Counted from the first letter of the stretch, positions 2,894 through 21,096 are shown. The stretch is 44,086 nucleotides of DNA from Actinomycetota bacterium (GCA_049323135.1 JBMOMH010000313.1:1-44086); one strand, 5' to 3'. Notes: generated from the letters alone by a model not told the origin. Made by a program: numbers and translations.

Positions 2894-3387
2894 GAGGCGG
2901 CCCCCCTCGTCGCGGGCAGCGGAGTCCGGCGCAGCTGCCGTACGGCGAGGGCCACGCCCACCGCGTTGGTCAGGATGCCGACGGCCATGATCGGGACCCG
3001 GTAGCCGGTGAGGAACACCGCGGCGCCCGACGCGCCGATGAGCGGGGCGAGGTCGGCCACGTGGTGGGCGCAGCAGGCGACCATGCCCAGGGCCGAGGCG
3101 CCCGCGCCGGTGCCGGCGGCGGCCCGCACGCTGGCCTGCAGGCGCCGCCGGCGCCGCAGCTCGACGAACAGGCCGACCTGCACGCCGAACCCGAGCAGGA
3201 TCGCCGCCAGCCAGGGCCAGTCCGCGCGCACCTGGTCGCCCAGGTGGCTCACGCCCCCCACGCCGCCGACAACGCTGGCGTAGAAGGCGGCCAGCACCGC
3301 CGCGGCCAGCGTCCCGGCGGCCAGGACGCGGGGGCGCAGCCCGCCTGGGGGCGCCGGCGTCGACACCCGCTCGACGGTCGCCGTCAC
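2890..3387 (-). CDS. Integral membrane protein with a CCAHH motif
   Basis: Likely start GTG 3387 overlapping the cupredoxin stop (GTGA). About 4 hydrophobic segments and MVACCAHHVAD. Confidence 0.75.
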   Translation of the reverse strand: MTATVERVSTPAPPGGLRPRVLAAGTLAAAVLAAFYASVVGGVGGVSHLGDQVRADWPWLAAILLGFGVQVGLFVELRRRRRLQASVRAAAGTGAGASALGMVACCAHHVADLAPLIGASGAAVFLTGYRVPIMAVGILTNAVGVALAVRQLRRTPLPATRGAAS

Positions 3388-3707
3388 GGTTCTACGACCA
3401 GCCGGCCGCGCAGCATCCCCATCCCGCAGGTGAACGGGTACACCCCGGGCCGGTCCGGTCGCAGGTCCACGGACACGGTCTGACCCTGTGGCAGCGCCGT
3501 GTCCACGCCGTACTCGGCGAACACCAGCCGCTCCGAGCAGCCGCTGGACTCCTCCCGCCGGAAGTCCAGCCGCACCGGCAGGCCCGCCTTCACGACGAGG
3601 GTGTCCGGCCGGTAGCCGCCGTTGACGAGGACGGTCGCCTCCTGGCGGCCCTCCGGCGTCAGCCGGGCGCGGACCCCGGTCTCCTTCTTCCTGCCGAACA
3701 GCGCCAT
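3384..3707 (-). CDS. CupA-like cupredoxin-fold copper-binding protein
   Basis: GGYxPxxLVVKAGxPVRLxF, upstream Cys (SGCSE), YPFTCGMGMLRG. RBS AGGAGG. Confidence 0.85.
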   Translation of the reverse strand: MALFGRKKETGVRARLTPEGRQEATVLVNGGYRPDTLVVKAGLPVRLDFRREESSGCSERLVFAEYGVDTALPQGQTVSVDLRPDRPGVYPFTCGMGMLRGRLVVEP

Positions 3708-3885
3708 CGCGGCCTCCTAGGGGGGTGACGGGTCGACCCGTGCAGGGTGGCCGGCGCCGGGGTGGGGGGCCATCCGGGCGGGCGACGGAACCGGGTTCGG
3801 GAAAGCCGCAGCATCGCTTGTCCCGTCCGGTCGGGCGGGCGGGGCGCCGCCCCTGCGGCCCGGCTTCGGAGGGCTGGCCGGCGCT

Positions 3886-6166: not shown

Positions 6167-6583
6167 GTGACCCGGGGACCGGCGCTGCGGCGCGGCGTGC
6201 TGGTCCTGGCGGTGGCCGCCGGGCTGGCGGTCATGCACGCGCTGGCCGTCGCGCCCCCCGATGCGGCCCGCGGCCCGATGGCCGCGGCGCACGCGGTCGC
6301 CGCCCACCCCGCCGATGCGCCCGCTGGCCTGTCGGCCGGGGAGGCCTCGCCGGCCCTGCCGGACGCCTCGGCCAGCCACTGCGCGCTGGCCGGTTCGGCC
6401 GCCCACGCCCCCGGGCACCCGGCGTCCTGCCTGGCCGTGCCGGGGTGGGGTCAGATGCTGCCCGGCAGTTCCGTCGCGCCCGGTCAGCCCGGCCCTCCGG
6501 CGTACGCCGAGCCGGCGGCACCGCCGGGCAGCGCGACTGGGCCGCCCCCGCCGCTGCTCCTCCTCGGCCGGCTGCGGGTGTAG
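6167..6583 (+). CDS. Small membrane/secreted protein with His/Cys, upstream of the multicopper oxidase (DUF6153-like)
   Basis: N-terminal hydrophobic stretch ending GLAVMHAL, HC and SCLA motifs, Pro-rich end (GPPPPLLLLGRLRV). Confidence 0.55.
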   Translation: MTRGPALRRGVLVLAVAAGLAVMHALAVAPPDAARGPMAAAHAVAAHPADAPAGLSAGEASPALPDASASHCALAGSAAHAPGHPASCLAVPGWGQMLPGSSVAPGQPGPPAYAEPAAPPGSATGPPPPLLLLGRLRV

Positions 6584-6656
6584 CAGGACGGACGGCCCCC
6601 TGCGTGGGGCCGATCGGCCGCTGACCCGTCCCGTCACCGTGAAGGAGCATCACACC

Positions 6657-8156
6657 ATGTCTGTGCCCCACCCTGTCCTGTCCCGCCGTCGACTGCTTCA
6701 GGGCGCCGGCGCGGTCTCTGCCGCCGGCCTGCTCAGCGCCTGCGGCCGGGCCGCCGTACCCGTGGCCGCCATCATCGGGCCGGCCGACCCCAGCGTCGCC
6801 GCGGCCGAGCAGGCCCGCCGGGTCGCCGGCGGCCGGGTGGTCGAGGCCACCCTGACCGCCCGGCCGACCCGGGTCGACCTCGGCGGCCTGGTCGTCGACA
6901 CCTGGGCGTACGACGACGTCGTGCCCGGCCGGCTGCTGCGAGCCCGCGCCGGTGACACGCTGCGGGTCGTTGTCCGCAACCAGTTGCCCGCCCCGACCAC
7001 GGTGCACTGGCACGGGATCGCGCTGCGCAACGACATGGACGGCGTCCCCGGGGTGACCCAGGACCCGATCGCCGCCGGGTCGTCGATGACCTACGAGTTC
7101 GTCGTACCCGACCCGGGCACGCACTGGTTCCACCCGCACGTGGGGGTGCAGCTGGACCGGGGCCTGTACGCCCCGCTCATCGTCGACGACCCGGCCGATC
7201 CGGGCCGGTACGACGCGGAGTGGGTGGTCGTCCTCGACGACTGGGTGGATGGCACCGGGCGCACTCCCGACGACGTGCTGCGCGAGCTGACCGCCGGCGG
7301 GCCGGGCGGTGGCATGGCCGGCATGCCGGGCATGGGGGGGATGGGTGGCATGGGCGGTGACAACCAGGGTGGCGACGTCACCTACCCCCACTACCTGGTG
7401 AACGGCCGGATCCCCTCCGCGCCCGCCACGCTCACCGGCAAACCGGGCCAGCGGGTGCGCATCCGGCTGCTCAATGCCGGTTCGGACACCGTGTTCCGGG
7501 TGGCCCTGGGCGGGCACCCGATGACGGTGACCCACACCGACGGGTTCCCCGTCCAGCCGGTGGAGACCGACGCCGTGCTGCTCGCCATGGGCGAGCGGTA
7601 CGACGTGTCGGTGACGCTCGGCGATGGGGCGTTCCCCCTGGTGGCCCTGCCGGAAGGCAAGCAGGGTGAGGCGCTGGCGGTGGTGCGCACCGGGGCCGGG
7701 GCGGTCCCCGCGCCCGGCGTACGGCCCGCCGAGCTGACCCGGCGCGTCCTGCTGGGCACCGCCCTGCGCGCGACGCCGGAGGTGACGCTGCCGGACCGAA
7801 AGCCGGACCGCACCTACGACCTGGGGCTGTCCGGCAACATGGCCAGCTACGTGTGGACCATCAACGGGCGCACCTTCGGCCAGCACCAGCCGCTGGCCAT
7901 GCGCCGCGGGGAGGCGGTGCGGTTGCGCTTCGCCAACCAGAGCATGATGTTCCACCCCATGCACGTGCACGGGCACACCTTCCAGGTGCGGGGCGCGAGC
8001 GGTCCCGGGCCGCGCAAGGACACCGTGCTCGTGCTGCCGATGCAGGCGGTTGTCGCCGACCTCGTCGCGGACAACCCCGGGCAGTGGGCCACCCACTGCC
8101 ACAACATCTACCACGCGGAGCGGGGGATGATGACGACGCTGTCCTACCAGGCGTGA
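6657..8156 (+). CDS. Multicopper oxidase, Tat lipoprotein (MmcO-like)
   Basis: SRRRLL Tat motif, LSAC lipobox, HWHG, WFHPH, HPMHVHGH, HCHNIYHAERGM, short Met/Gly-rich loop. RBS AAGGAG. Confidence 0.93.
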   Translation: MSVPHPVLSRRRLLQGAGAVSAAGLLSACGRAAVPVAAIIGPADPSVAAAEQARRVAGGRVVEATLTARPTRVDLGGLVVDTWAYDDVVPGRLLRARAGDTLRVVVRNQLPAPTTVHWHGIALRNDMDGVPGVTQDPIAAGSSMTYEFVVPDPGTHWFHPHVGVQLDRGLYAPLIVDDPADPGRYDAEWVVVLDDWVDGTGRTPDDVLRELTAGGPGGGMAGMPGMGGMGGMGGDNQGGDVTYPHYLVNGRIPSAPATLTGKPGQRVRIRLLNAGSDTVFRVALGGHPMTVTHTDGFPVQPVETDAVLLAMGERYDVSVTLGDGAFPLVALPEGKQGEALAVVRTGAGAVPAPGVRPAELTRRVLLGTALRATPEVTLPDRKPDRTYDLGLSGNMASYVWTINGRTFGQHQPLAMRRGEAVRLRFANQSMMFHPMHVHGHTFQVRGASGPGPRKDTVLVLPMQAVVADLVADNPGQWATHCHNIYHAERGMMTTLSYQA

Positions 8157-8184: not shown

Positions 8185-9468
8185 TCACGTGCGGGCGTGC
8201 CGGTCGACGTCCGCGGTGAACTCCGCGACCATGTCCGGGGTCAGCGTGCGGCGCGTGGCGGTGATGGCCGCGAGGAAGTCTTCGGTGCCGGCGCGGGGCG
8301 CGCCGGCACCGAAGACGGCCCGTTCGAACACGAGCTGCGCTGCCTTGCGCGCCGCGAAGTCGATGTCCGCGGGCGTGAACAGCTCCGACGCGGCGACGAT
8401 CGCCGGCAGTTCGATTCCGCCATGCGGCATCGAGTCGACGTAGCGCTGCCAGATGGCTGCCCGGGCGGCCGCGTCCGGGGGGCCGATGGGGATGACGTAG
8501 TCGAACCGGCCGGGGCGAAGCAGCGCGGTGTCGAGCTCGCGCACCGAGTTGGTCGCACACACCAGCAGCCGCCCCTCCCGTTCCCGGAAGGCGGGGATCA
8601 GCTTCAGCATCTCGTTGGTGACGGTGTGGCCGTCGCGTGCCAGCCGACCCTCACGGCGTCCGGCGATCTCTTCGACCTCGTCGATGAAGAGCACGACGTG
8701 TTCCAACTCGGCGACGACGCCGAACGCCTCGGCCAGCCCCGACGCCAGGCCGGAGGGCGTGCCGTCGGCCAGCCGCGAGGGGAAGATCTCGACGAACGGC
8801 CAGCCGAGCCGGGCGGCGACGCCCTTGGCGAAGGTGGTCTTCCCCGTACCCGGCGGGCCGAAGAGCACGATGGCCCGTGGGGGGACGAGACCGGTCTGCT
8901 GGGCCAGGTCCGGGTGGGCCAGGGGCAGGATCACCCGGCGCTCGATGAGCTCCTTCTCCTGGACCATGCCGCCCAGGCGGTCCCACAGGCCCGGGTCGAC
9001 GCGCTGACCGCCGAGCCGGTCGAGCAGGTGCTGGTCGGCGGAGGTGTCCTCCTCCAGCTTCTGGAAGTAGAGGACGCCGCGTCGGACCTGGAAGCCGCAG
9101 TGGTCCAGCGCGGCGGCCCCGACGTCAGACTCGTCGCCGAGCAGCGCGCTGACGCGGCGGACACCGGCGGCGACGAGCCGGCGCTCCAGCTCGGTCAACA
9201 GCTGCGACCCGATGCCCCGCTGGCGCCACCGCGGTGACAGGCTGATCCGCAGGATCCAGCCGTGCTGGCCCTGCACCCGGCTCACCGCGCTGCCGACGAG
9301 CTCGTCGTCGACCGTGGCGACAACGGCCGGGTGCCCCTCACGCACCGCGCTGATCAGGTCGGTGATGCCCGACCAGGGAAGGCCACCGGAGGCGGCCGGG
9401 TCGTCCCAGAGGTGGACGGCCGACTCCAGGTCGTCGGGGTGGAAGGGTCGGACCCGCCATGCGGCCAT
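8185..9468 (-). CDS. GNAT acetyltransferase fused to an AAA ATPase
   Basis: N-terminal RQRGIG acetyl-CoA motif, Walker A GPPGTGKT, Walker B LFIDE, SRH ATNS...ALLRPGRFD. Confidence 0.9.
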   Translation of the reverse strand: MAAWRVRPFHPDDLESAVHLWDDPAASGGLPWSGITDLISAVREGHPAVVATVDDELVGSAVSRVQGQHGWILRISLSPRWRQRGIGSQLLTELERRLVAAGVRRVSALLGDESDVGAAALDHCGFQVRRGVLYFQKLEEDTSADQHLLDRLGGQRVDPGLWDRLGGMVQEKELIERRVILPLAHPDLAQQTGLVPPRAIVLFGPPGTGKTTFAKGVAARLGWPFVEIFPSRLADGTPSGLASGLAEAFGVVAELEHVVLFIDEVEEIAGRREGRLARDGHTVTNEMLKLIPAFREREGRLLVCATNSVRELDTALLRPGRFDYVIPIGPPDAAARAAIWQRYVDSMPHGGIELPAIVAASELFTPADIDFAARKAAQLVFERAVFGAGAPRAGTEDFLAAITATRRTLTPDMVAEFTADVDRHART

Positions 9469-9658: not shown

Positions 9659-10210
9659 CTACACCACGTAGAAGGCGAACCACATCGCCAGCGAGGCCGC
9701 GACGACGAACGTCCAGAAGATCGACACGCCCTCACTCAGGAACCCGGTCTGGGCCGCCAGCCGGCCCCGGGCCGCCTGTACGGCGAACCCGAGCCAGACC
9801 AGGAGTCCGGCCGTCACGTGGGCGACGTCCAGGCCCAGGGCGAGGTAGAACACCTCGCCATAGCGGGACCCGGGCGCCAACCCCACGGTGGCCCACTCGA
9901 CCGCGAACCCGAGGAGGACCACGGCGGCCAGTGCGGAGGTGGCCAGGGCCCAGGGCACCGCCCGGGCCGGTTCGCGCCGGGCGGTGGAGGAGGCGCGGCG
10001 GGCCGACCACACGCTGACGACGAGGACGGCCATCAGCAGGGCGACCAGTGGCTGGTTGAGCCGGTCGGAGCGGCCCGTGCCCGCCAGGACGAAGCGGACC
10101 GCGATGGTGGTGACGAAAAGCATGCCCTCGCTGGCCAGGAAGAGCACGAGTCCGCCCCGGTACATGGCCACCTGGCGCCGCGACAGCGGCAGCGTCGTCG
10201 CCTCGCTCAT
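9659..10210 (-). CDS. ctaE: Heme-copper oxidase subunit III (short, 5-TM form)
   Basis: LFLASE motif, YGEVFY...HV, FWTFV. ATGA overlap with the subunit I stop. Confidence 0.8.
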   Translation of the reverse strand: MSEATTLPLSRRQVAMYRGGLVLFLASEGMLFVTTIAVRFVLAGTGRSDRLNQPLVALLMAVLVVSVWSARRASSTARREPARAVPWALATSALAAVVLLGFAVEWATVGLAPGSRYGEVFYLALGLDVAHVTAGLLVWLGFAVQAARGRLAAQTGFLSEGVSIFWTFVVAASLAMWFAFYVV

Positions 10211-12081
10211 CGGTCGGCGCTCCGCGAAGGCTGGAGCCTCCCACGATCCAGCGAGCCGTAGGTGTAGAAGTCCTGGTCCACGACGGGCTCCTCGTCGAAG
10301 TTCTCCTTCGGCGGTGGGGAGGACGTCTGCCATTCCAACGTCCTACCCTGCCAGGGGTTGGCGCCGGCCCGGGGAGCGCGGGCCCACGCCCAGATCAGGT
10401 GGATGACGTGGCCGACGAAGGAGATGCCCAGCAGGGCGCTGACCAACGAGACGACCAGGTTGACGGTGCCCAGGTAGGCGGGGTACTCGGCCACCCGGCG
10501 GTTCATCCCGTTCGCGCCCAGGTAGAACATCGGCAGGAACGTGCCGTTGAAGCCCAGGAACAGTGCCCAGCTGAGCACCTTCCCCCACCGTTCGTCGTAC
10601 CGGCGGCCGGAGACCTTGGGGAACCAGTAGTACCAGCCGGCCACCCAGGCAAAGATCATCCCGCCGATGATGGTGTAGTGGAAGTGGCTGACCACGAAGT
10701 ACGTGTCGTGCAGGAACAGGTTGGCGGGAGCGTCGGCGAGGAACACCCCGGTGACCCCGCCGATGAGGAAGTTGAACAGGCTCATGAGGACGAGCAGCAT
10801 CGGCGTGGTCAGGCGTATCCGACCTCGCCAGAGGGTGCCCAGTGCGGCCAGGTACATGAAGCCGGTGGGCACGGAGATGAGCTCGGTGGTCGTCATGAAC
10901 GGTACGAGTCGTTCCGCGGCCACGCCGGTGAACATGTGGTGCACCCAGACGATCCCGCTCATGATGCCGACCAGGACGAAACCGGCCACCGCCCAGCGGT
11001 ACGCGAACAGGGTCTTGCGCGCCATCACCGGGATGATCTCGAGCCAGACGCCGAACGCCGGCAGGATGATGATGTACACCTCCGGGTGCCCGAAGAGCCA
11101 GAACAGGTCCTGCCACAGGAGCGGCAGGCCCGACTCTTTGAAGAACGAGGTGGGCACGATCCGGTCGAGCAGTCCCATGACCATCGCCGTGCTCGCCACG
11201 GGGACCCACAGGATGTTGAGGATGCTGGTCACCAGCATGGCCCAGGCGAACATCGGTAGCCGTCGCCAGGTAAGGCCCGGCGCGCGCAGGTAGATGATGG
11301 TTGCGGTCACGTTGACCGCCGTGAGCACCGAGGACGTCCCCAGCGTCAGCACACCGAGGTAGTACAGCAGCTGCCCGCTGGCGTCCGTGGCGGCCAACGG
11401 CGCGTAGCCCGTCCAACCCGTCTGGAAGCCTCCGAGCAGGGGGGTCGCGGCGATGGCCAACACCCCGGCCGGGATGAACCAGTAGCTCAGAGCGTTGACC
11501 CGTGGGAACACCATGTCCTCTGCTCCGATGAGCAGCGGGACGAGGTAGTTGCCGAAGCCACCCACGATTCCCACGACGGCGACGGCAAAGAGCATGAGCG
11601 TGCCGTGGACGCCGACCGCCGTGTTGTACTGCTGGTTGGTGGCGAAGAGCGTACGGTCCGGCGTGGCGAGCTCGGCCCGCATGAACATGGCGACAAGGCC
11701 CGCCAGCAGGAACGTGCCTACCGCTGTCACCAGGTACTGCAGGCCGACGACCTTGTGGTCGGTGTTGAAGCGGAAGTACCTCGCCCATCCGGCGCCCTCG
11801 TCCCAGCGGCGGGTACCCCCCAGGAAGGGCCTCAGACCCGCCTCCCACGCTCCGATCCCCAAGAGCCAACCCGTCAGACCGCCCACGTATCCGGTGGTCA
11901 CGGCCGCCTGGGTGAGCCGGGGAGCCCCCTGCAGGAGGGCCGTGGCAAAGGCGACGAGCGCGAACCCGGTCACGCCCCACAAGAAGGACCGAAGCAGTGG
12001 CGCCAGTGGGTGCCGGCCCAGGCCGGGTGGGGACGAGATGGGCGCCGCGGTGGCCGGGGTCTCGAACACCTCCTCCCTCAC
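10207..12081 (-). CDS. ctaD: Heme-copper oxidase subunit I, A1-type, atypical K channel
   Basis: TDHK, VHGTLM, GWTGYAPL, GHPEVY, WVHHMF, LHDTYFVVSHFHY, GMNRR. Start GTG 12081 overlaps the subunit II stop. Confidence 0.95.
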   Translation of the reverse strand: MREEVFETPATAAPISSPPGLGRHPLAPLLRSFLWGVTGFALVAFATALLQGAPRLTQAAVTTGYVGGLTGWLLGIGAWEAGLRPFLGGTRRWDEGAGWARYFRFNTDHKVVGLQYLVTAVGTFLLAGLVAMFMRAELATPDRTLFATNQQYNTAVGVHGTLMLFAVAVVGIVGGFGNYLVPLLIGAEDMVFPRVNALSYWFIPAGVLAIAATPLLGGFQTGWTGYAPLAATDASGQLLYYLGVLTLGTSSVLTAVNVTATIIYLRAPGLTWRRLPMFAWAMLVTSILNILWVPVASTAMVMGLLDRIVPTSFFKESGLPLLWQDLFWLFGHPEVYIIILPAFGVWLEIIPVMARKTLFAYRWAVAGFVLVGIMSGIVWVHHMFTGVAAERLVPFMTTTELISVPTGFMYLAALGTLWRGRIRLTTPMLLVLMSLFNFLIGGVTGVFLADAPANLFLHDTYFVVSHFHYTIIGGMIFAWVAGWYYWFPKVSGRRYDERWGKVLSWALFLGFNGTFLPMFYLGANGMNRRVAEYPAYLGTVNLVVSLVSALLGISFVGHVIHLIWAWARAPRAGANPWQGRTLEWQTSSPPPKENFDEEPVVDQDFYTYGSLDRGRLQPSRSADR

Positions 12082-12845
12082 TGCGCACCCCCCCGGGCCT
12101 GGTCGGCGGCCCACCCTTGGAAGTCAGCCTCCTGGACGACCCGGGCGGGGGCCGCCATCTGGCCGTGTCCGACCCCGCACAGCTCGGCACACTGCACGCG
12201 GGTTCGCGGATCCTGGGCGGTGGACGTGAGCGTCGAGGGGGTCAACGTCAGGGTTCGCGTCTCCCCGGGAATGACGTCCATCTTGATGCGCATGGAGGGA
12301 ATCCAGAAGGCGTGGATCACGTCCTGGCTCCTCAGCGTGAAGCGGACTGGTCGTCCGAGGGGCATGACCAGCTCGGTGGCGTCACGGACGCCGTAGGCGG
12401 GGTAGCTGAACCGCCACTCCCACTGCCGGGCCAGCACGTCGACCTGCAGTGGGTCGGCGGCGGCGGCGCTGGAGCGGTCCAGCCGGCGAAGCCCCGTCAC
12501 CCCTGGGAAGATGACGACCAGCGTGGCCAGGCCGAGCGTCGTACCGAGCCAGGCGAGGGTGGCCCGACGATCCGTGTCGACCTGGTCGGCTGCGTCCTCC
12601 ACCTCCCCGGCAGGGGCACGGAAGCGGGTCAGCGCGAAGACGAGGGCGAGGGTGACGAAGGCGAACACTGGAACGACCAGTCGCAGCAGGACAACCAGGG
12701 CCTCATCAACCACTGCGCCCTCAGTGCTGGCCAGGAGGGGCAGGTTCCGGGCGAGGACGGTGACCGCCCACTCCCCAAGACCGGTGAGGGCGAGTCCCAG
12801 GACACCCAGCGCCCACCCGGGGTGCGCTCGCCACCACTGTCGCAT
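12078..12845 (-). CDS. ctaC: Heme-copper oxidase subunit II with a CuA site
   Basis: QWEWRFSYP, DVIHAFWIP, CAELCGVGHGQM. Confidence 0.93.
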   Translation of the reverse strand: MRQWWRAHPGWALGVLGLALTGLGEWAVTVLARNLPLLASTEGAVVDEALVVLLRLVVPVFAFVTLALVFALTRFRAPAGEVEDAADQVDTDRRATLAWLGTTLGLATLVVIFPGVTGLRRLDRSSAAAADPLQVDVLARQWEWRFSYPAYGVRDATELVMPLGRPVRFTLRSQDVIHAFWIPSMRIKMDVIPGETRTLTLTPSTLTSTAQDPRTRVQCAELCGVGHGQMAAPARVVQEADFQGWAADQARGGAQ

Positions 12846-12896: not shown

Positions 12897-13661
12897 TCAG
12901 CGCACCACCGTCACCTGGCCGCTCATCCCGTTCAGGTAGTGCTGACCGCTCTGCTGGAAACAGGCGAAGGTCCAGGTGCCCGGCAGGTCGGGCACGGTGA
13001 AGTCCAGGGTGACCCGGCCACCCCCGGCCAGGACGACCATGAGGCTGTCCATGCCGGGCACGCTGGCCATGCCGGGCATGCCGGTGGGGCTGGGCGTGGG
13101 GGTCATCCCGGGCATCCCGGGCATCCCGGGCATCCCGGTGGGGCTGGGCGTGGGGGTCATCCCGGGCATGCCGGGCATCCCGGTGGGGCTGGGCGTGGGG
13201 GTCATCCCGGGCATCCCGGGCATCCCGGGCATCCCGGTGGGGCTGGGCGTGGGGCTCATGCCGGTTACCGCGGCCATGCCGGGCATCAGCATCTGCACCC
13301 CCGTCTGATCCAGCACAGCCACGGAGACACCCCGAAAGAAGTCGGTGGCGAACCCATCCTGCGGTAGCCGGCCGACCACCGAGTCAGTCCACCTGACGTT
13401 CTGGCCGAGCATGAACTCGTGTGCCCGCGCCGGGTTGGACTGGCTGTCGTTCACGAGGGTGAGGCGGACCCGCTGCCCCACCGTCCAGACGAGCTGCTTC
13501 GGGGCGAAGCTGTAGTCGTCCATGCGTACGAGCACGCTGTCCGGCTGCTGGCGCACCGTCCGCTCAGTCGCCGAAGGCTGGCCCACCCACCAGACCAGGG
13601 CGATGACGGCGACCAGCGCAGTCACCAGGCTGGCCCCAAGCGAGCGCGTGGCCCGAGTCAT
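12897..13661 (-). CDS. Exported/anchored cupredoxin (CopI/plastocyanin-like) with an internal Met-rich repeat
   Basis: Start ATG 13661 overlaps the ctaB stop. Hydrophobic N-terminus, DYSFAP, HEF, and C-terminal ACF-QQSGQ-HYLNGM (type-1 Cu ligands H, C, H, M). Confidence 0.85.
   Translation of the reverse strand: MTRATRSLGASLVTALVAVIALVWWVGQPSATERTVRQQPDSVLVRMDDYSFAPKQLVWTVGQRVRLTLVNDSQSNPARAHEFMLGQNVRWTDSVVGRLPQDGFATDFFRGVSVAVLDQTGVQMLMPGMAAVTGMSPTPSPTGMPGMPGMPGMTPTPSPTGMPGMPGMTPTPSPTGMPGMPGMPGMTPTPSPTGMPGMASVPGMDSLMVVLAGGGRVTLDFTVPDLPGTWTFACFQQSGQHYLNGMSGQVTVVR
13068..13262 (-). repeat. Coding tandem repeat: four (S/T)PTPSPT units with nested GMP 9-mers
   Basis: On the + strand, CCGGTGGGGCTGGGCGTGGGG occurs four times, separated by (CATCCCGGG)n. 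Confidence 0.95.
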
Positions 13662-14614
13662 GACGCGAGGAACCCTCGTACGAGTACGTCGACCGCCACG
13701 GCGGCGAACAGCAACGTCAGGTAGGAGATCGATCGGCGGAACAGGTCCAGCGACGCAGAGCCGGGTGTCTCTCCCACGCCGTGCAGCCGGTAGGCGGCGC
13801 GCAGCAGGTCGGCGCCGGCGGCGGCCGCTACGGCGGCGTACAGCCAACCCAGACCGGCCACCGGCCAGAGCACAAGTGACGTCAGGACCGTGGCCCAGGT
13901 GTAGGCGAGGATCTGACGTGTTACGACCCTGGTAGGAGCCACCACCGGCAGCATCGGGACGCCGGCCCTCGCGTAGTCGTCGCGGAACCGCAGGGCCAGG
14001 GCCCAGAAGTGCGGCGGTGTCCAGAAGAACACGACCAGGAACATCAGCCAGGGCGTCCAGGACAGCGACCCGGTCACCGCCGCCCACCCCACGAGCACCG
14101 GGAGGCAGCCGGCGGCACCACCCCACACGATGTTCTGAGCGGTACGCCGCTTGAGGACGAGGGTGTAGCCGAGGACATAGCCGACCAGGCCGCCGTCCGC
14201 CAAGGCGACGGCGAGCAGCGGGGTCGTGGCGAGCAGCACGGCGTTGCCCACCACGGCGAGGGCCAGGCCGAAGACCAGCGCGGCCCGCACACTCACGGCC
14301 CGGCTCGGGAGCGGCCGCCGAGCCGTACGGCGCATCAGGGCGTCGATGTCCCGGTCCAGGTAGCAGTTGAAGGTGTTCGCGCTTCCGGCGGCCAGGGCAC
14401 CGCCGAGCAGGGTGCCGATGAGGAGCGGCGGGGCGGGCAGCCGCCCGGCCGCGAGCACCATGGCAGGGACCGTGGTCACGAGCAGGAGCTCGATGATCCG
14501 TGGCTTGGTGAGGGCTAGGTAGGCGTGAAGGGTGTCGGCGGCCGCCCTGGTCGCCGCGGTTACCCGCAGTTCCGTCGTGGGTGCTGTCCCGGCAGCGGCA
14601 CTGTTGGCGTCCAC
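13658..14614 (-). CDS. ctaB: Protoheme IX farnesyltransferase (heme O synthase)
   Basis: LTKPRI, NCYLDRDIDALMRRTARRPLP, LKRRT, FFWTPPHFWAL, DDYARAGVPMLP. Confidence 0.95.
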   Translation of the reverse strand: MDANSAAAGTAPTTELRVTAATRAAADTLHAYLALTKPRIIELLLVTTVPAMVLAAGRLPAPPLLIGTLLGGALAAGSANTFNCYLDRDIDALMRRTARRPLPSRAVSVRAALVFGLALAVVGNAVLLATTPLLAVALADGGLVGYVLGYTLVLKRRTAQNIVWGGAAGCLPVLVGWAAVTGSLSWTPWLMFLVVFFWTPPHFWALALRFRDDYARAGVPMLPVVAPTRVVTRQILAYTWATVLTSLVLWPVAGLGWLYAAVAAAAGADLLRAAYRLHGVGETPGSASLDLFRRSISYLTLLFAAVAVDVLVRGFLAS

Positions 14615-15804
14615 AAGGGGTCAGTGTCACCTTCCCCTGGCCCAGTGGTCACCCTGCCGCGGGTAGCTGTCATCGCATTGTCATGAACGGCGTCCACGGG
14701 CAGCCACAGGCTGAAGCGCGCCCCCTGCCCGGGCGTACCCTCGGCGCCGACCGCACCGCCGTGGGCGCGGGCCACGCCGGCCACGATGGGCAGGCCGAGG
14801 CCAGCCCCCGAGCCCTGATCCCGTCGGGTTCTCCGGTAGAACCGGTCGAACAGGTGGGCGGCTTCGTCGGCGGCGAACCCGACCCCGTCGTCCTCGACCT
14901 GCACCAGGACGGGCGTCGCTGGCCGGCCAGGGTCGTGCCGGGCCCGGACCGTGATGAGGCCCTCCTCGTCGGTCGCGGCCACCGCGTTCTCGACGAGTGC
15001 GTCCAGTGCCGCCTCCAGGCGATCGGCGTCGGCCCACAGTCCGTCGACACCGTCCACCTCGACCCGCCAGCGCCGAGGGACCACGACGGCGAACCGGTCC
15101 ACGCAGGTCCGAAGCAGTGTGCCCAGGTCCACTCGCGTGACGTGCAGGGGGCCGGCGGCGAGGGCACTGAGGGCAAGGAGGCGATCGGCGACCCGGGCCA
15201 GCCGGCTGAGCTCGGCGACCGCGCAGGCCAGGTCCTCGGCCAGGTCAGGACTGTCGGGGCCGGCGGCCTGGGCCAGCTCGACATACCCCCGGGCCACCGC
15301 GATCGGCGTACGCAGCTGGTGGGAGGCCTCCCGGAGAAACGCCTGCTCCCGCTCGAGCGCCTCGCGTTCCGCGGCCAGGGCGCGGTTCGCCGTGACCACG
15401 GCCGCCTGACGCCGCCGCGCGTGCCAGACCATCACCCCGAAGACCGCGGCCATCAAGGGCACCTCGGCCACGATCTGCGGGCCGGCGGCACCCCGGGCCA
15501 GCGGGGGCAGCAGGGCCGCCAGCGACGCGGTGGCCACCGCGGCGGCGAGCAGCAGCGTCCGGCGCCCAGACCACGCCCGGAAGCCGTAGAGCAGCGTGAA
15601 CGAAATCCAGATGACGTGGAAGGGGACCGTCTGGAAGCCAGGGAGGACGAGGATCGCGAGCAGCAGGGCGGCCAGGGCCAGGCCACCCCAGGCCAGGTCC
15701 GCCCCGGCACCCGACAGTGGGGTGCCGAGCCTGAGCCTTGGCGCGAGCCTTGATCTGAGCCGGCCTACCGCGGCGGCGGCGCGTGGCACGGCGATCTGGT
15801 CCAT
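14560..15804 (-). CDS. Sensor histidine kinase, no large extracellular domain
   Basis: About 4 closely spaced TM helices, H-box SHQLRTP, LVENA, VEDDGVG, FDRFYR, GAGLGL. Confidence 0.9.
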   Translation of the reverse strand: MDQIAVPRAAAAVGRLRSRLAPRLRLGTPLSGAGADLAWGGLALAALLLAILVLPGFQTVPFHVIWISFTLLYGFRAWSGRRTLLLAAAVATASLAALLPPLARGAAGPQIVAEVPLMAAVFGVMVWHARRRQAAVVTANRALAAEREALEREQAFLREASHQLRTPIAVARGYVELAQAAGPDSPDLAEDLACAVAELSRLARVADRLLALSALAAGPLHVTRVDLGTLLRTCVDRFAVVVPRRWRVEVDGVDGLWADADRLEAALDALVENAVAATDEEGLITVRARHDPGRPATPVLVQVEDDGVGFAADEAAHLFDRFYRRTRRDQGSGAGLGLPIVAGVARAHGGAVGAEGTPGQGARFSLWLPVDAVHDNAMTATRGRVTTGPGEGDTDPLWTPTVPLPGQHPRRNCG

Positions 15805-16479
15805 TCACGCCTCCAGGGTGTAGCCCAGGTGGCGCACGGTCGCGATGGTCCCTGCGGGCAGCTTCGCTCGCAGGCGACGGACGTAGACATCGACGACGTT
15901 GCTGCCCGGGTCGAAGGTGAACCCCCACACGCTGGCCAGCAGCTCCTCCCGTGTGCAGATCTCCCCAGCCCGGGTCATCAGCTGCGCCAGCAGCAGGCAC
16001 TCCCGCCGGGACAGCCCGATGGACTCGCCGCCGACCGCTACCACCCGACGTCGCCGGTCGAGGGACAGCGTCCCAACCTGCAGTGGTCCGGGCTGGTCCA
16101 CCCGCCGGCTGGTCGGTTCGACGTCCCGCAGCCGGGCGCGCACCCGGGCCAGCAGCTCGGCGAGGGCGAAGGGCTTGGCCAGGTAGTCGACCGCCCCCCC
16201 ATCCAGGCAGCGCACCTTGGCCTGAACCTCGCCGATTGCGGACAGCACGAGGACACGCTGTCCCGGTCGTCGTGCCAGCAGGTGGGCGAGGACCTGATCG
16301 CCCGACATGGTCGGCAGTATCAGGTCGAGCAGCACCAGGTCGTAGGTGGTGGCGTCGGCCCGCTCCAGCGCTTCGGGGCCGTCACTCGCTGCGTCCACGA
16401 GCAGGCCGGAGGAGGACAGGGCGCGGGAGAGGACCCGCTGCATTCCCGGCTCGTCGTCGACGACGAGGACTCGCGCCAT
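15805..16479 (-). CDS. OmpR-family response regulator
   Basis: VLVVDDE, LLDLILP, DYLAKPF, winged helix SNVVDVYVRRLRAKL. ATG at 16479. Confidence 0.93.
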   Translation of the reverse strand: MARVLVVDDEPGMQRVLSRALSSSGLLVDAASDGPEALERADATTYDLVLLDLILPTMSGDQVLAHLLARRPGQRVLVLSAIGEVQAKVRCLDGGAVDYLAKPFALAELLARVRARLRDVEPTSRRVDQPGPLQVGTLSLDRRRRVVAVGGESIGLSRRECLLLAQLMTRAGEICTREELLASVWGFTFDPGSNVVDVYVRRLRAKLPAGTIATVRHLGYTLEA

Positions 16480-16532: not shown

Positions 16533-18503
16533 TCAGCCGGCGCGGCGGGGGCGGCGGCCGCGGCGGGACCGCAGGTAGTCCGACACCACGTACTCGCCTA
16601 GCCGGTCCTGGTCCGGCAGGAACACCCGCCCCCCGTTGCGCCGCGCGATCTCCTCTGCGAACGCGGTGAGCCGGGGGTCGTCGTCGAGCTGGAAGACGTT
16701 GATGGTGGCGCCCCGCCGGGTAACCCGGTCGACCTCGGCCAGGGTCCGGGCCACGGTCTCCGGGGCCGGGGGCCAGTCGAAGAAGGCCTCCCCGTCGGGC
16801 AGCAGGTGCGCGGTCGGCTCGCCGTCGGTGACGACGAGCACCACCGGCTCGGCGCCGGGATGCCGGTCCAGGTGGCGGCCGGCGAGCAGCAGCGCGTGCT
16901 GCAGGTTCGTCCCCTGCACCAGGTCCCAGTCCAGCCCCACCAGGTCGGTCTCCCCGAGGACCCGGGCGTGCGAGGAGAACCCGATGACCTGGATGGCGTC
17001 CTGCGGGTAGCGGGTCGCCACCAGCGCGTGCAGGGCCAGCGCCGTGGACTTCGCGGCGCCCCAGGTGCCCCGCAGCACCATCGAGTAGGACAGGTCGACC
17101 AGCAGGCACACCGCGGCGCCGCTGCGCCGCTCGGTCTCCGCCACCTCGAAGTCGTCGACGGCCAGCCGCACCCGCCCGCCGGTCGGCCCGGTCCGTAGCA
17201 GCGCATTGCGCACGGTGCGGGCCACATCCAGCGGCTGCTCGTCGCCGAACTGCCAGGGCCGCGAGCCGCCGGTGAGCTCCCCGGCGGCCCCGCTGCGCGC
17301 CGCGTCGTGGTCGCCCCGCCCGGTGGCGTCCACCCGGGCGAAGATGCGGCGCAGCGCGGTGGCGCCGATGCGGCGTACCGCCTTCGGGGTGAGCTCCAGC
17401 TGCCCGTCCCGGCGGCTGAGGTAGCCCTGCGCCTGCAGCTCCCGCTCGATCCGCCGCAGCGCGGCCAGGTCGTCGACGGCCTGGCGCCCCAGCGCCCGGC
17501 GTACCGCCTCCTCGTCGACGTCGGCCAGGTCGGCGCCCGGGTAGTCCTGCCCGAGGGTGGCGTCCAGCGCGTCGAGGTCGGCCAGCTCCTCCAACGCGGT
17601 GGTCGCGTCCCCCAGGCCGAGGGGGTTCTCCCCGCCCAGCCGCCGGCGTCCGCCCCAGTCCAGGTCGCCGCGCCGGGCCCGCAGCGCGGCGGCCAGCCGG
17701 GCCATCTCCTCGGCCAGGCCGGTGCCCGCCATGGCCTGGGCGACCAGCCCGGCCAGCTCCTCCCGCTGCCCGGGGGACAGGGAGGCGAGCAGCCGGGACG
17801 CGGCGGCGGCCCGCCGGGCCAGGCTGTCCACCAGCTCCTCGAGCGTCGCCGGCTGCTCGGGGAAGAACTCCCCGTGCCGGCGCAGGAACTCGGCGAACTG
17901 CGCGCGGGTGTCCTCCCCGCGGTCGTCGGCCGCGAGCAGCGCGTTGAGGTCGGCCAGCATCTGCTGCAGCCGGCTGAAGGCCGCCGGGTCCTGCCCCCCC
18001 TGGCGCAGCGCGTCCCGCAGCCCGCGGAACTGGCTGTCGAGCACCTCCCGGCGCAGCAGGTCCCGGATCTCCTCGTACGACGCCCGCGCGTCGGCGGAGC
18101 GCCAGTCGTAGTCGGCCAGCTCGCGCACCGCCCGGGCGGTGTCGCCGGGCAGCGCATCCAGCTGGGCCTCGCGCAGCCGGGCGTCGTCGGACGGGTCGGG
18201 GAACAGGGTGGCCCGCTCCTGGCCCACCGCCCGGTCCAGCAGCGCGCGGACCTGCTCGAGCGTGCCGTCGAGGCGCCCGGCGCGGGTAAGCTCGCGGCAC
18301 CGGCGCCGGGCCTGGGCGCGCAGCGCGTCCAGGCCACGCAGCCCGGCCGCGCCGCGGCGCAGCAGCCCGCGCAGCGCCGCTGTGGGGTTGGTGCCGGCGA
18401 GCACCGCGTCGCCCAGCTCGTCCAGCGCCCGGCGCACGTCGTACGGCGGCGCCAGCGGGTCCGGCCCGTCGTGCCAGCTGCCGTACCGGTAGCCGCGCGC
18501 CAT
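16533..18503 (-). CDS. VWA domain protein (Rv0959-like)
   Basis: MIDAS DLSYSM, GTNLQHAL, VTDGEPTAH. N-terminal YRYGSWHDGPDPLAPP. Confidence 0.88.
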   Translation of the reverse strand: MARGYRYGSWHDGPDPLAPPYDVRRALDELGDAVLAGTNPTAALRGLLRRGAAGLRGLDALRAQARRRCRELTRAGRLDGTLEQVRALLDRAVGQERATLFPDPSDDARLREAQLDALPGDTARAVRELADYDWRSADARASYEEIRDLLRREVLDSQFRGLRDALRQGGQDPAAFSRLQQMLADLNALLAADDRGEDTRAQFAEFLRRHGEFFPEQPATLEELVDSLARRAAAASRLLASLSPGQREELAGLVAQAMAGTGLAEEMARLAAALRARRGDLDWGGRRRLGGENPLGLGDATTALEELADLDALDATLGQDYPGADLADVDEEAVRRALGRQAVDDLAALRRIERELQAQGYLSRRDGQLELTPKAVRRIGATALRRIFARVDATGRGDHDAARSGAAGELTGGSRPWQFGDEQPLDVARTVRNALLRTGPTGGRVRLAVDDFEVAETERRSGAAVCLLVDLSYSMVLRGTWGAAKSTALALHALVATRYPQDAIQVIGFSSHARVLGETDLVGLDWDLVQGTNLQHALLLAGRHLDRHPGAEPVVLVVTDGEPTAHLLPDGEAFFDWPPAPETVARTLAEVDRVTRRGATINVFQLDDDPRLTAFAEEIARRNGGRVFLPDQDRLGEYVVSDYLRSRRGRRPRRAG

Positions 18504-18505
18504 GC

Positions 18506-19918: not shown

Positions 19919-19990
19919 CCGTCGACCGTACGTCGCCGGCCGGGCCGCTGCCCAGGCGCCCGGCTGGGATAGTGCCCGGTCGGGCGCAGC

Positions 19991-20983: not shown

Positions 20984-21096
20984 GTGGGCCTACCGGGGGC
21001 GGGGCCGGCGATCTTCGCCAGGGCCGCGTCGACGGTGGCGCCGCCTGGGCGACCGCCCGGGAAGCATACGGGCGGGTGATCGTCTGACCGGCTCCT

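What the first reader, a model, noticed from the sequence alone, without database searches (positions are those of the whole stretch)
10207..12845. A1-type heme-copper oxidase with an intact D channel but a dismantled K channel
Seen (manual alignment, bovine numbering): helix VIII reads ISVPTGFMYL against IAIPTGVKVF, so the K-channel lysine K319 is Met (codon 10855-10857). Helix VI reads PAFGVWLEII, so S255 is Leu (11041-11043). Subunit II reads RATLAW where (R/K)LE(I/V)xW is expected, so the channel-entry Glu62 is Thr (12558-12560). D-channel residues (Y19, N80, D91, N98, S101, S156/157, N163, E242), the cross-link Tyr of GHPEVY, all six His ligands, the RR pair and CuA are retained. Established: the K-to-M change (K362M in Rhodobacter sphaeroides aa3) is the classic mutation that blocks O2 turnover while leaving peroxidase-type activity. 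Inference: three coordinated losses in two subunits of an otherwise intact operon suggest a natural subfamily with different proton wiring or substrate, not decay.
Basis: partly seen in the sequence, partly recalled or inferred. Interest (0 to 1): 0.88.

Follow-up and report, generated by a model that had tools for sequence, protein, structure and literature searches.

The report
Lysine-less oxidase with AcoP copper partner
This is a second, intact respiratory oxygen-reducing enzyme whose usual "K" proton path lacks its lysine; that is a shared trait of a whole, already reported lineage of such enzymes, not a quirk or decay of this genome.

Summary
Subunit I (10207-12114, minus strand) has Met420 at the K-channel lysine site and Leu358 at the helix VI serine site. 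Subunit II (12078-12845) has Thr96 at the channel-entry Glu site. The D-channel residues, six His ligands, cross-link Tyr and CuA are kept.

This is a lineage trait, not decay. None of the 120 nearest subunit I homologues has the Lys, and 37 of the 38 nearest subunit II sequences lack the Glu. In a 225-sequence tree, all 135 Lys-less proteins fall on one side and all carry Glu411 and Ser414. The genome also holds a canonical Lys-bearing ctaD.

The trait is in print. A 2020 bioRxiv preprint (Degli Esposti et al.) reports family-A oxidases without K354 and E78 but with a conserved D channel. It lists iron oxidisers, Alicyclobacillales, and Actinobacteria and Chloroflexi MAGs.

The gene just upstream of subunit II is a homologue of AcoP, the oxidase partner of Acidithiobacillus ferrooxidans (PDB 7z3b, E 1.3e-19). 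Here it carries a Met-rich repeat insert and sits among copper-resistance-like genes.

Verdict: a new member of a known kind. The proton route remains untested.

The parts
15805..16476 (-). OmpR-type response regulator. Its best NCBIfam match is the heavy-metal CztR/SilR/CopR subfamily, below the cut-off.
   Evidence: TIGR01387, E 3.5e-53, 180.5 bits against a cut-off of 279.2. The start is inferred from where the match begins.
14560..15804 (-). Sensor histidine kinase.
   Evidence: HisKA and HATPase_c; among many weak matches, the heavy-metal sensor kinase TIGR01386 scores 110.5 bits against a cut-off of 292.55.
13658..14614 (-). Heme O synthase (ctaB). It is the second copy in this genome.
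   Evidence: NF003349, 411 bits against a cut-off of 246; two ctaB copies score over the cut-off (C313 and C370); the only ctaA lies on C370.
12897..13661 (-). AcoP-like membrane-anchored cupredoxin. The His/Cys/His/Met copper ligands are kept, and it has a Met/Pro-rich insert. Its start overlaps the ctaB stop (ATGA).
   Evidence: AcoP 7z3b, E 1.3e-19, with 'ahef' aligned to 'ahqf' and 'cfqqsgqhylngm' aligned to 'cflqtgqhfmngm'; the ATGA overlap. Cupredoxin_1, E 4.8e-05.
13050..13287 (-). Tandem repeat encoding MPGMPGM-TPTPSPTG units inside the AcoP-like gene.
   Evidence: period 54, 4.6 copies, score 308; relatives of 215 and 245 aa differ in repeat number.
12078..12845 (-). Oxidase subunit II with CuA and no cytochrome c domain.
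   Evidence: PF00116, E 2.2e-13; alignment to 2yev_B. TIGR02866, 132.7 bits against a cut-off of 147.7.
12558..12560 (-). Thr96 codon at the K-channel entry Glu site of subunit II.
   Evidence: 'drratlaw' aligned to 'ndrlevvw'; 37 of the 38 nearest subunit II sequences lack Glu here.
10207..12114 (-). Oxidase subunit I, family A, with the Glu of GHPEVY. It has two extra N-terminal helices. The start codon is uncertain.
   Evidence: PF00115, E 1.9e-130; best PDB chain 6adq_F, E 6.2e-119; model pLDDT 83.3, pTM 0.88. A-type oxidases, TM 0.85-0.92 by target length.
11041..11043 (-). Leu358 codon at the helix VI Ser site.
   Evidence: Lys-less set: L 85, N 24, Q 14, M 9, others 3, of 135. Lys forms: S 76, T 14, of 90.
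10855..10857 (-). Met420 codon at the K-channel Lys site.
10873..10884 (-). Codons of Glu411 to Ser414 on helix VIII. Glu411 and Ser414 are the invariant marks of the Lys-less lineage.
   Evidence: Glu in 135 of 135 against 0 of 90; Ser in 135 of 135 against 6 of 90.
10732..10773 (-). Stretch from the Asn448 codon (helix IX) to the Asp461 codon (loop after helix IX). Both are further lineage marks.
   Evidence: N 96% against 4%; D 99% against 0%; helix IX spans 437-456.
9659..10210 (-). Short subunit III-like protein. Its ATG overlaps the subunit I stop (ATGA).
   Evidence: NF050119, E 4.8e-12, 46.5 bits against a cut-off of 190; no Pfam hit; the overlap.
8185..9468 (-). GNAT acetyltransferase fused to an AAA ATPase. 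It lies on the same strand, downstream of subunit III. Its link to the oxidase is unknown.
6261..8156 (+). Three-domain multicopper oxidase, closest to the CopA copper-resistance subfamily. It has a Gly/Met-rich stretch.
   Evidence: three Cu-oxidase domains. TIGR01480, 293.4 bits against a cut-off of 478.95; the translation shows the Gly/Met-rich stretch.
3387..3716 (-). Small Cupredoxin_1 domain protein.
   Evidence: E 2.6e-17.

Best explanation
The window carries a second terminal-oxidase operon, all on the minus strand: two-component system, ctaB, acoP-like cupredoxin, coxII, coxI, coxIII. Its enzyme belongs to the family-A heme-copper oxidase lineage that lacks the K-channel Lys and the subunit II entry Glu as a lineage trait.

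I read it as a working O2 reductase. Electrons most likely reach CuA through, or with the help of, the membrane-anchored AcoP-like cupredoxin. That protein could be fed by the genome's diheme QcrC (inferred). This enzyme keeps every D-channel residue, so pumped protons and at least the oxidative-phase chemical protons would use the D channel (inferred).

For the reductive phase I favour a lysine-free polar route on helices VIII and IX. It would use the retained Thr417 and Tyr347, the lineage-invariant Ser414, and Asn448. On neighbouring helices of the model, Asn448 sits about as many residues from the N-side helix end as Met420 does. This resembles what the B family does without a Lys (recalled; not tested).

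Shown: the residues, their conservation, the clade, the operon and the AcoP homology. Inferred: O2 reduction, the electron donor and the proton route.
For: All metal ligands and the cross-link Tyr are kept in 135 of 135 Lys-less sequences.

Clade-wide co-variation:
- None of the 120 nearest subunit I homologues has Lys.
- 37 of the 38 nearest subunit II sequences lack the Glu, while 73 of the 82 more distant ones have it.
- Paired genes in loci: Lys with Glu 71, non-Lys with non-Glu 13, non-Lys with Glu 1.
- One side of the tree holds all 135 Lys-less sequences. Glu411 and Ser414 are invariant there.

All frames are intact. ATGA overlaps join ctaB to acoP and coxI to coxIII. The canonical ctaD with Lys lies elsewhere in the genome.

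The cupredoxin is an AcoP homologue with its ligands kept. AcoP interacts with the A. ferrooxidans oxidase and sustains its activity, and that oxidase has measured cytochrome c oxidase activity. Sulfobacillus AcoP homologues sit in cox clusters (PMC4059628 and PMC10804444, passages).

The preprint states that the iron-oxidiser COX1 has a hydrophobic residue at K354 and that COX2 lacks E78.

The model is confident (pTM 0.88) and its nearest folds are A-type oxidases. The genome has a diheme cytochrome c next to the canonical oxidase genes.
Against: - No activity or proton-pumping measurement exists for any member with this exact pattern (D channel kept, Met at the Lys site).
- I could not place the A. 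ferrooxidans CoxA sequence in my own tree. That link rests on the preprint and on AcoP.
- The split of all 135 Lys-less sequences from the 90 Lys forms has weak support (SH-like 0.66). Only the main 126-tip clade is strong (0.98).
- AcoP-like genes do not always accompany Lys-less oxidases. Of 12 Actinomycetota genomes with such an oxidase, 1 has a strong hit and 2 have marginal hits.
- No conserved basic residue replaces the Lys in the membrane helices.
- Subunit I and II score below NCBIfam's equivalog cut-offs.
Confidence: 0.65

Rival explanations
1. Respiratory cuprous oxidase. The Met-rich loop of the AcoP-like cupredoxin recruits periplasmic or extracytoplasmic Cu(I). Its type-1 copper oxidises the Cu(I), and the electrons go to CuA and on to O2 in the Lys-less oxidase. 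The module is switched on by the adjacent CopRS-like system. Copper detoxification would thus be coupled to respiration, as Fe(II) oxidation is in A. ferrooxidans.
For: - A Met/Pro-rich repeat is inserted between the copper ligands.
- An independent Met-rich insert (DGQMQ repeats) sits at the same site in the AcoP-like gene beside another Lys-less oxidase (L213).
- Of the 91 parsable sequences among the best 150 family members, 52 have at least 8 Met there.
- The neighbours are a CopA-like multicopper oxidase, another cupredoxin and a heavy-metal-type response regulator.
- Met-rich domains recruit Cu(I) for oxidation at the T1 site of CueO (PMC11494321, passages and abstract).
Against: - A. 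ferrooxidans AcoP showed no cuprous oxidase activity on its own (PMC11494321).
- The regulator and multicopper oxidase matches are below the curated cut-offs.
- The Met-rich loop could equally serve copper loading of CuA, as the AcoP structure paper suggests for its extended loop (PMC10804444).
- There is no expression data.
Confidence: 0.12
2. All protons, chemical and pumped, enter through the intact D channel, and the K region is simply closed. The lineage marks (Glu411, Asp461) serve the exit or loading side, or stability, rather than uptake.
For: - The window and 29 of its 30 closest homologues keep Asp200 and Asn207.
- Leu358 and Met420 are hydrophobic, the entry Glu is gone, and no basic residue is gained.
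- Asp461 lies in the P-side loop after helix IX, and Glu411 lies in the P-side third of helix VIII.
Against: - In 48 of the 104 tips of the window's own subclade, and 57 of all 135 Lys-less sequences, the D-channel entry Asp is itself replaced. The lineage as a whole therefore cannot depend on a canonical D entrance.
- Thr417 and Tyr347 are kept and Ser414 is invariant, which is unexpected for a dead channel.
Confidence: 0.15
3. The enzyme has shifted to another substrate (NO or H2O2).
For: The operon is a second oxidase beside a canonical one.
Against: - The three CuB His ligands and the cross-link Tyr, the marks of O2 reductases, are invariant (the criterion as stated in PMC11214002, passages).
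- The NOR families described there derive from the B and C branches.
- The AcoP-partnered relative is a cytochrome c oxidase.
Confidence: 0.05
4. It is a decaying or non-functional paralogue.
For: It is a second copy, and it scores below the equivalog cut-offs.
Against: - The frames are intact, and third-position GC is 0.86-0.91 for coxI and coxIII.
- All ligands are kept.
- The same pattern is conserved at 48-90% identity across several phyla.
- The genes are translationally coupled.
Confidence: 0.03

Closest known systems
Family-A COX1/COX2 'without the K-channel' of acidophilic iron oxidisers and relatives (Degli Esposti et al., bioRxiv 2020, 10.1101/2020.03.01.968255; see also PMC8239418)
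   Same: - A hydrophobic residue at the K354 (P. denitrificans) site.
- A non-conservative change at COX2 E78.
- D-channel residues kept.
- The same taxa appear among my homologues: Alicyclobacillaceae, Sulfobacillus, Chloroflexi (Thermoflexus), Rhodobacteraceae and Actinobacteria MAGs.
- A cupredoxin gene lies just before COX2.
   Different: - The preprint says these proteins classify as A2. The window's protein has the A1 Glu (GHPEVY), and in my set 119 of the 135 Lys-less sequences keep it.
- I did not find the invariant Glu411 and Ser414 or the Asn448 and Asp461 marks in the passages I read. The supplementary figures could not be opened.
- The window's host is a high-GC actinobacterial MAG, and no rusticyanin was found in it.
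AcoP-CoxBACD module of the Acidithiobacillus ferrooxidans rus operon
   Same: - The AcoP homologue has its Cys/His/Met loop and first His conserved.
- It has an N-terminal hydrophobic anchor and sits immediately upstream of subunit II.
- The oxidase has CuA and no fused cytochrome c.
   Different: - The window's AcoP-like protein has an insert of about 85 residues, rich in Met and Pro, between AcoP residues 115 and 120.
- No rusticyanin was found. Cyc2 and Cyc1 were not searched for.
- The CuA Glu ligand is kept here ('caelcg'), whereas the preprint says proteobacterial iron oxidisers lack it.
- The operon has its own ctaB and a two-component system upstream.
Canonical actinobacterial aa3 oxidase CtaCDEF (M. 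smegmatis 6adq, C. glutamicum 7q21)
   Same: - It is the best PDB sequence match (E 6.2e-119).
- Same fold, same ligands and same D channel.
   Different: - Lys, the helix VI Ser/Thr and the subunit II Glu are present there and absent here.
- About 44% identity to the genome's own CtaD.
- The window's protein has two extra N-terminal helices.
- His residues conserved at window positions 336, 514 and 530 in Lys forms are replaced.
B-family oxidases (T. thermophilus ba3) with a lysine-free K-analogue channel
   Same: A proton path without a Lys is precedented. From recall, a Ser one turn above the conserved Thr on helix VIII corresponds to S309 and T312 of ba3. S309 is named as conserved in PMC11214002.
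   Different: - Sequence matches to ba3 are weak (E 1e-6 to 1e-4, against 1e-119 for A type).
- The window keeps the D channel and Glu345.
- The B family keeps an entry Glu in subunit II (recalled); this lineage does not.

Membership tests
Family A (A1) heme-copper oxygen reductase | Six His ligands of heme a, heme a3 and CuB | tested here: met
   H170, H343, H392, H393, H477 and H479 are present, and each is invariant in all 225 sequences.
Family A (A1) heme-copper oxygen reductase | Cross-link Tyr on helix VI, with the Glu of GHPEVY marking the A1 subtype | tested here: met
   GHPEVY lies at 342-347.
Family A (A1) heme-copper oxygen reductase | D-channel residues: the entry Asp, the Asn and Ser residues, and the Tyr | tested here: met
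   Y127, N189, D200, N207, S210, S261/S262 and N268 are present.
Family A (A1) heme-copper oxygen reductase | K-channel Lys on helix VIII and the entry Glu in subunit II | tested here: not met
   Met420 and Thr96.
Family A (A1) heme-copper oxygen reductase | Scores over the curated family cut-offs | tested here: inconclusive
   Pfam COX1 scores 436 bits against a cut-off of 34.8, so that is met. NCBIfam CtaD_CoxA scores 566 against 670.75, and CoxB scores 132.7 against 147.7, so those are not met.
K-channel-less family-A lineage (Degli Esposti et al. 2020) | A hydrophobic or otherwise non-basic residue at K354 (P. denitrificans numbering) | tested here: met
   Met420. None of the 120 nearest homologues has Lys.
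K-channel-less family-A lineage (Degli Esposti et al. 2020) | COX2 E78 is substituted | tested here: met
   Thr96. 37 of the 38 nearest subunit II sequences are non-Glu.
K-channel-less family-A lineage (Degli Esposti et al. 2020) | Groups in a tree with the lineage's named members | tested here: inconclusive
   It groups with sequences named Sulfobacillus, Alicyclobacillus, Ferroacidibacillus, Thermoflexus and Rhodobacteraceae.
AcoP-type cupredoxin | Sequence homology to AcoP, with the His, Cys, His and Met ligands | tested here: met
   7z3b, E 1.3e-19. The ligand motifs align.
AcoP-type cupredoxin | The gene lies in a cytochrome oxidase cluster, upstream of subunit II | tested here: met
   Gene order 13661-12897, then 12845-12078. 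The published arrangement is cited.
AcoP-type cupredoxin | Binds the oxidase and sustains its activity; green, high-potential copper site | not testable with these tools
   This needs biochemistry. No complex prediction was run.
rus-type iron-oxidation operon | Rusticyanin and the Cyc2/Cyc1 cytochromes accompany the oxidase | tested here: not met
   No rusticyanin (TIGR03095) match in the genome, which is 90.7% complete. Cyc2 and Cyc1 were not searched for. There are no cytochrome c genes in the operon.
B family or NOR branches | Closer in sequence to ba3 or NOR than to A type; loss of the Tyr or of the D channel | tested here: not met
   ba3 chains score E 1e-6 to 1e-4, against 1e-119 for A type. 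The Tyr and the D channel are kept.

The most novel reading that the evidence does not exclude
The Met-rich AcoP-like cupredoxin and the Lys-less oxidase together form a split 'respiratory cuprous oxidase' under copper-responsive control. Cu(I) is captured by the Met-rich loop and oxidised at the type-1 copper, and the electrons are respired to O2. The oxidase takes up its protons through a route marked by the lineage-invariant Glu411, Ser414, Asn448 and Asp461. That would be a proton wiring distinct from the A, B and C families.
Probability: 0.1. Interest if true: 0.8.

Novelty: new member of a known kind. Interest (0 to 1): 0.4.

Why it matters
Textbook accounts give every A-type oxidase two proton channels, and K362M-type mutants are nearly dead. 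A large natural lineage that lives without the Lys and the entry Glu shows that the K channel can be replaced. In the Firmicutes branch the D-channel entry Asp is gone as well.

This lineage offers natural material to ask how chemical protons reach the active site in the reductive phase. The present locus adds three things:
- A neutral-looking, D-channel-intact variant in an actinobacterium.
- A sequence signature to target by mutagenesis (Glu411, Ser414, Asn448, Asp461).
- A link between AcoP-type cupredoxins with Met-rich loops and copper-homeostasis genes.

It does not by itself reveal a new kind of enzyme.

Tried and rejected
- Decay: rejected, because the frames are intact and the pattern is conserved across the clade.
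- Strain-specific change: rejected.
- A compensating Lys, Arg or His elsewhere in the membrane helices: none is conserved. The only gains of charged residues are Glu411, Asp461, Asp244 and Asp336, plus Glu69-type, Glu91, Glu106 and Arg112 in the N-terminal extension.
- Residue-level structural superposition: not possible, because the model's coordinates and Foldseek alignments are not returned. Only global matches were obtained.
The metagenome scan used patterns shared with canonical oxidases. Only 13 of 80 and 2 of 80 loci respectively were Lys-less. The nearest relatives (60-90% identity) were therefore seen only as proteins, without gene context.
- The word-index search for the cupredoxin found only 2 relatives. 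The exhaustive profile search was needed.
- timed out and was repeated. One search failed on a frame containing stop codons, so that stretch was dropped.
- A. ferrooxidans CoxA could not be fetched by name with any tool.
- No complex prediction was run for the cupredoxin and subunit II.
- dN/dS was not computed, because there was no DNA from close relatives.
- Supplementary figures of the two Degli Esposti papers could not be read.


Full report
**What is there**

The window is high-GC DNA (0.67-0.78) from a genome of 2.97 Mb in 391 contigs, 90.7% complete. A run of genes lies on the minus strand between about 16476 and 9659:
- An OmpR-type response regulator and a histidine kinase.
- ctaB (13658-14614).
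- A cupredoxin (12897-13661).
- Oxidase subunit II (12078-12845).
- Subunit I (10207-12114).
- A short subunit III-like protein (9659-10210).

ATGA overlaps join ctaB to the cupredoxin and subunit I to subunit III. A GNAT-AAA fusion follows on the same strand. A CopA-like three-domain multicopper oxidase lies on the other strand (6261-8156), and a further small cupredoxin lies at 3387-3716.

**Check of the observation**

All three substitutions are real and sit at the stated codons.
- HMMER alignment to M. smegmatis CtaD puts Met420 opposite the helix VIII Lys and Leu358 opposite the helix VI Ser. There are no nearby gaps, and the DNA reads ...CCC ACC GGC TTC ATG....
- Alignment to T. thermophilus caa3 subunit II puts Thr96 opposite the Glu of RLEVVW and shows an intact CuA motif.
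- The D-channel positions, the six His ligands, the cross-link Tyr and the Arg pair are all present.
- An AlphaFold model (pLDDT 83.3, pTM 0.88) matches A-type oxidases best, with TM 0.85-0.92 by target length and rmsd about 2.2 Å.
- The model has two extra N-terminal helices (38-62 and 69-97).

A residue-level superposition was not obtainable.

**Is it a lineage trait?**

Yes.
- Among the 120 best subunit I homologues (48-90% identity), the Lys site reads M 43, A 35, V 14, S 12, I 8, F 5, L 2, G 1, and never K. The Ser site reads L 73, N 23, Q 14, M 9, F 1. The Tyr and the His240-equivalent are kept in 120 of 120.
- The genome's other ctaD (contig C55) has Lys.
- Among the 120 best subunit II sequences, 37 of the nearest 38 (the window's own included) lack the Glu. 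73 of the remaining 82 have it.
- I read 104 subunit I frames from fetched loci. Lys goes with Glu in 71, non-Lys with non-Glu in 13, and non-Lys with Glu in 1 (L007, possibly an alignment shift). Of the Lys forms, 3 had a gapped subunit II and 16 had no subunit II in reach.
- These loci were partly chosen by a pattern that contains the lineage motif, and the sequences are related, so the counts are descriptive.

**Tree and signature**

A FastTree of 225 sequences (the window, 104 locus frames and 120 database proteins) puts all 135 Lys-less sequences on one side and all 90 Lys forms on the other. Support for that split is only 0.66. The main 126-tip clade has 0.98.

All 135 Lys-less sequences have Glu411 and Ser414 on helix VIII. 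Among the Lys forms, 0 of 90 have that Glu and 6 of 90 have that Ser. Further marks are Gly378, Asn448, Asp461, Thr481 and Ile482. His residues conserved in Lys forms at window positions 336, 514 and 530 are replaced. No conserved basic residue is gained in the membrane helices.

In the model, Asn448 lies 11 residues from the N-side end of helix IX and Met420 lies 10 residues from the N-side end of helix VIII. By residue count they sit at a similar depth. Whether they face each other is unknown.

**The D channel is not intact in the whole lineage**

The entry Asp is kept in 78 of 135 Lys-less sequences, and the following Asn in 78 of 135. Within the window's 104-tip subclade there are two types.
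- The window's type has Asp, Asn, Leu, mostly Met, and the second Arg. It has 56 tips, with source names Jiangellaceae, Hyphomonas and Rhodobacteraceae. 29 of the 30 closest homologues are of this type.
- The other type is found in Sulfobacillus, Alicyclobacillus, Ferroacidibacillus and Thermaerobacter. There the Asp is replaced, Asn becomes Ser, the helix VI site is Asn or Gln, the Lys site is Ala or Ser, and the second Arg is Trp.

**Distribution**

- I fetched 19 loci from 40 same-class genomes. One (G035) holds a Lys-less form.
- In a sample of 401 genomes of the phylum, 10 of the 28 best non-own loci that could be parsed are Lys-less.
- The distribution across Actinomycetota, Bacillota, Chloroflexota and Alphaproteobacteria (names) implies horizontal transfer.
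- Some tallies include unpublished genomes: G006, G013, G022, G028, G030 and G034, and G041, G057, G086, G158 and G277. Where read, these contributed only Lys forms.

**Known already**

Degli Esposti et al. (bioRxiv 2020; passages and section 8 read) make the following points:
- COX1 of acidophilic iron oxidisers has hydrophobic residues at K354, and their COX2 has a non-conservative change at E78.
- The D channel is essentially conserved.
- Close relatives occur in Thioclava, Acidithrix, Alicyclobacillales, and Actinobacteria and Chloroflexi MAGs.
- These proteins form the deepest family-A branch.

The published version (PMC8239418, passages) speaks of K-channel variants and repeated loss, mainly for archaea. 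A phrase search for oxidases without a K-channel found only the preprint and one unrelated paper. I did not see the Glu411/Ser414 signature in the text I read. The supplements were closed.

**The cupredoxin**

It is an AcoP homologue (7z3b, E 1.3e-19). The first His and the Cys-His-Met loop align, and about 85 extra residues sit between AcoP residues 115 and 120. These are MPGMPGM-TPTPSPTG repeats encoded by a tandem DNA repeat. Their number differs in relatives of 215 and 245 aa.

AcoP is the membrane-anchored partner of the A. ferrooxidans oxidase. Its gene precedes coxB, and homologues in Sulfobacillus lie in cox clusters.

The family is large: 1198 representatives at E up to 1e-3, 247 up to 1e-10 and 44 up to 1e-30. 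Among the best 150, 91 could be parsed, and 52 of those have at least 8 Met between the ligands, with unrelated repeat units.

AcoP-like genes lie beside Lys-less oxidases in L003 and L213. They are not universal, however.
- Of 12 Actinomycetota genomes with such an oxidase, 1 has a strong hit and 2 have marginal hits.
- None of the 40 same-class relatives has one.

**Genome background**

The genome has two ctaB copies, one ctaA and no rusticyanin match. A diheme cytochrome c lies beside the canonical oxidase genes.

**Reading**

The enzyme is a member of a reported Lys-less family-A lineage, coupled to an AcoP-type cupredoxin, and most likely reduces O2. The proton route is inferred. I favour the D channel plus a lysine-free polar route on helices VIII and IX. 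The rival is that the D channel carries everything.

The copper-gene neighbourhood and the Met-rich loop allow a bolder reading, a Cu(I)-oxidising respiratory module. I rate that at about 0.1.

Noticed in passing
window 13050-13287 (inside the AcoP-like gene 12897-13661); L213:10425-11180; proteins P0243-P0392: Met-rich low-complexity inserts with unrelated repeat units (MPGMPG/TPTPSPTG, DGQMQ, MDMSD, GMQMEG) recur at the same loop of AcoP-like cupredoxins. 52 of the 91 parsable sequences among the best 150 family members have at least 8 Met there. Repeat number differs between 70%-identical relatives.
   Followed up: partly
Subunit I homologues P0068, P0070, P0088, P0092, P0094, P0104, P0110, P0115 (Sulfobacillus, Thermaerobacter, Alicyclobacillus and Ferroacidibacillus names): In the Firmicutes branch of the same subclade the D-channel entry Asp is also replaced (G/S/T/E/K). 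The next Asn is Ser, the helix VI site is mostly Asn or Gln (Met in P0094), and the second Arg of the RR pair is Trp. Neither canonical channel entrance is present there.
   Followed up: partly
window 6261-8156 (+), 3387-3716 (-), 14560-16476 (-): The neighbourhood looks copper-related. It holds a CopA-like multicopper oxidase with a Gly/Met-rich stretch, a small Cupredoxin_1 protein, and a two-component system whose regulator best matches the heavy-metal CopR/SilR subfamily. All of these NCBIfam matches are below the curated cut-offs.
   Followed up: partly
window 8185-9468 (-): A GNAT acetyltransferase is fused to an AAA ATPase, directly downstream of subunit III on the same strand. Its function and its link to the oxidase are unknown.
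   Followed up: no
Subunit II of loci L009-L011, L016, L018, L025, L034, L069, L084: In the deep-branching Lys-less group (contig titles name Solirubrobacterales, Gaiellaceae and Acidimicrobiaceae), the subunit II entry Glu is replaced by Gln in 9 of 9 loci. In the window's group it is replaced by small or hydrophobic residues.
   Followed up: no
Names attached to P0008, P0017, P0025, P0039 and others: Public annotation labels many of these family-A, CuA-partnered subunit I proteins 'cbb3-type cytochrome c oxidase subunit I'. That could mislead metabolic reconstructions.
   Followed up: no
window 16536-20989 (-): Two large frames upstream of the regulator: one with a weak von Willebrand A match, below the Pfam cut-off, and one with weak AAA/Mg-chelatase-like matches. 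The long frames in this GC-rich stretch may be over-extended.
   Followed up: no
L069:5824-7720: The Lys-less subunit I of this Actinomycetes MAG is split into two overlapping frames (230 and 478 aa). This is either a frameshift or an assembly error.
   Followed up: no
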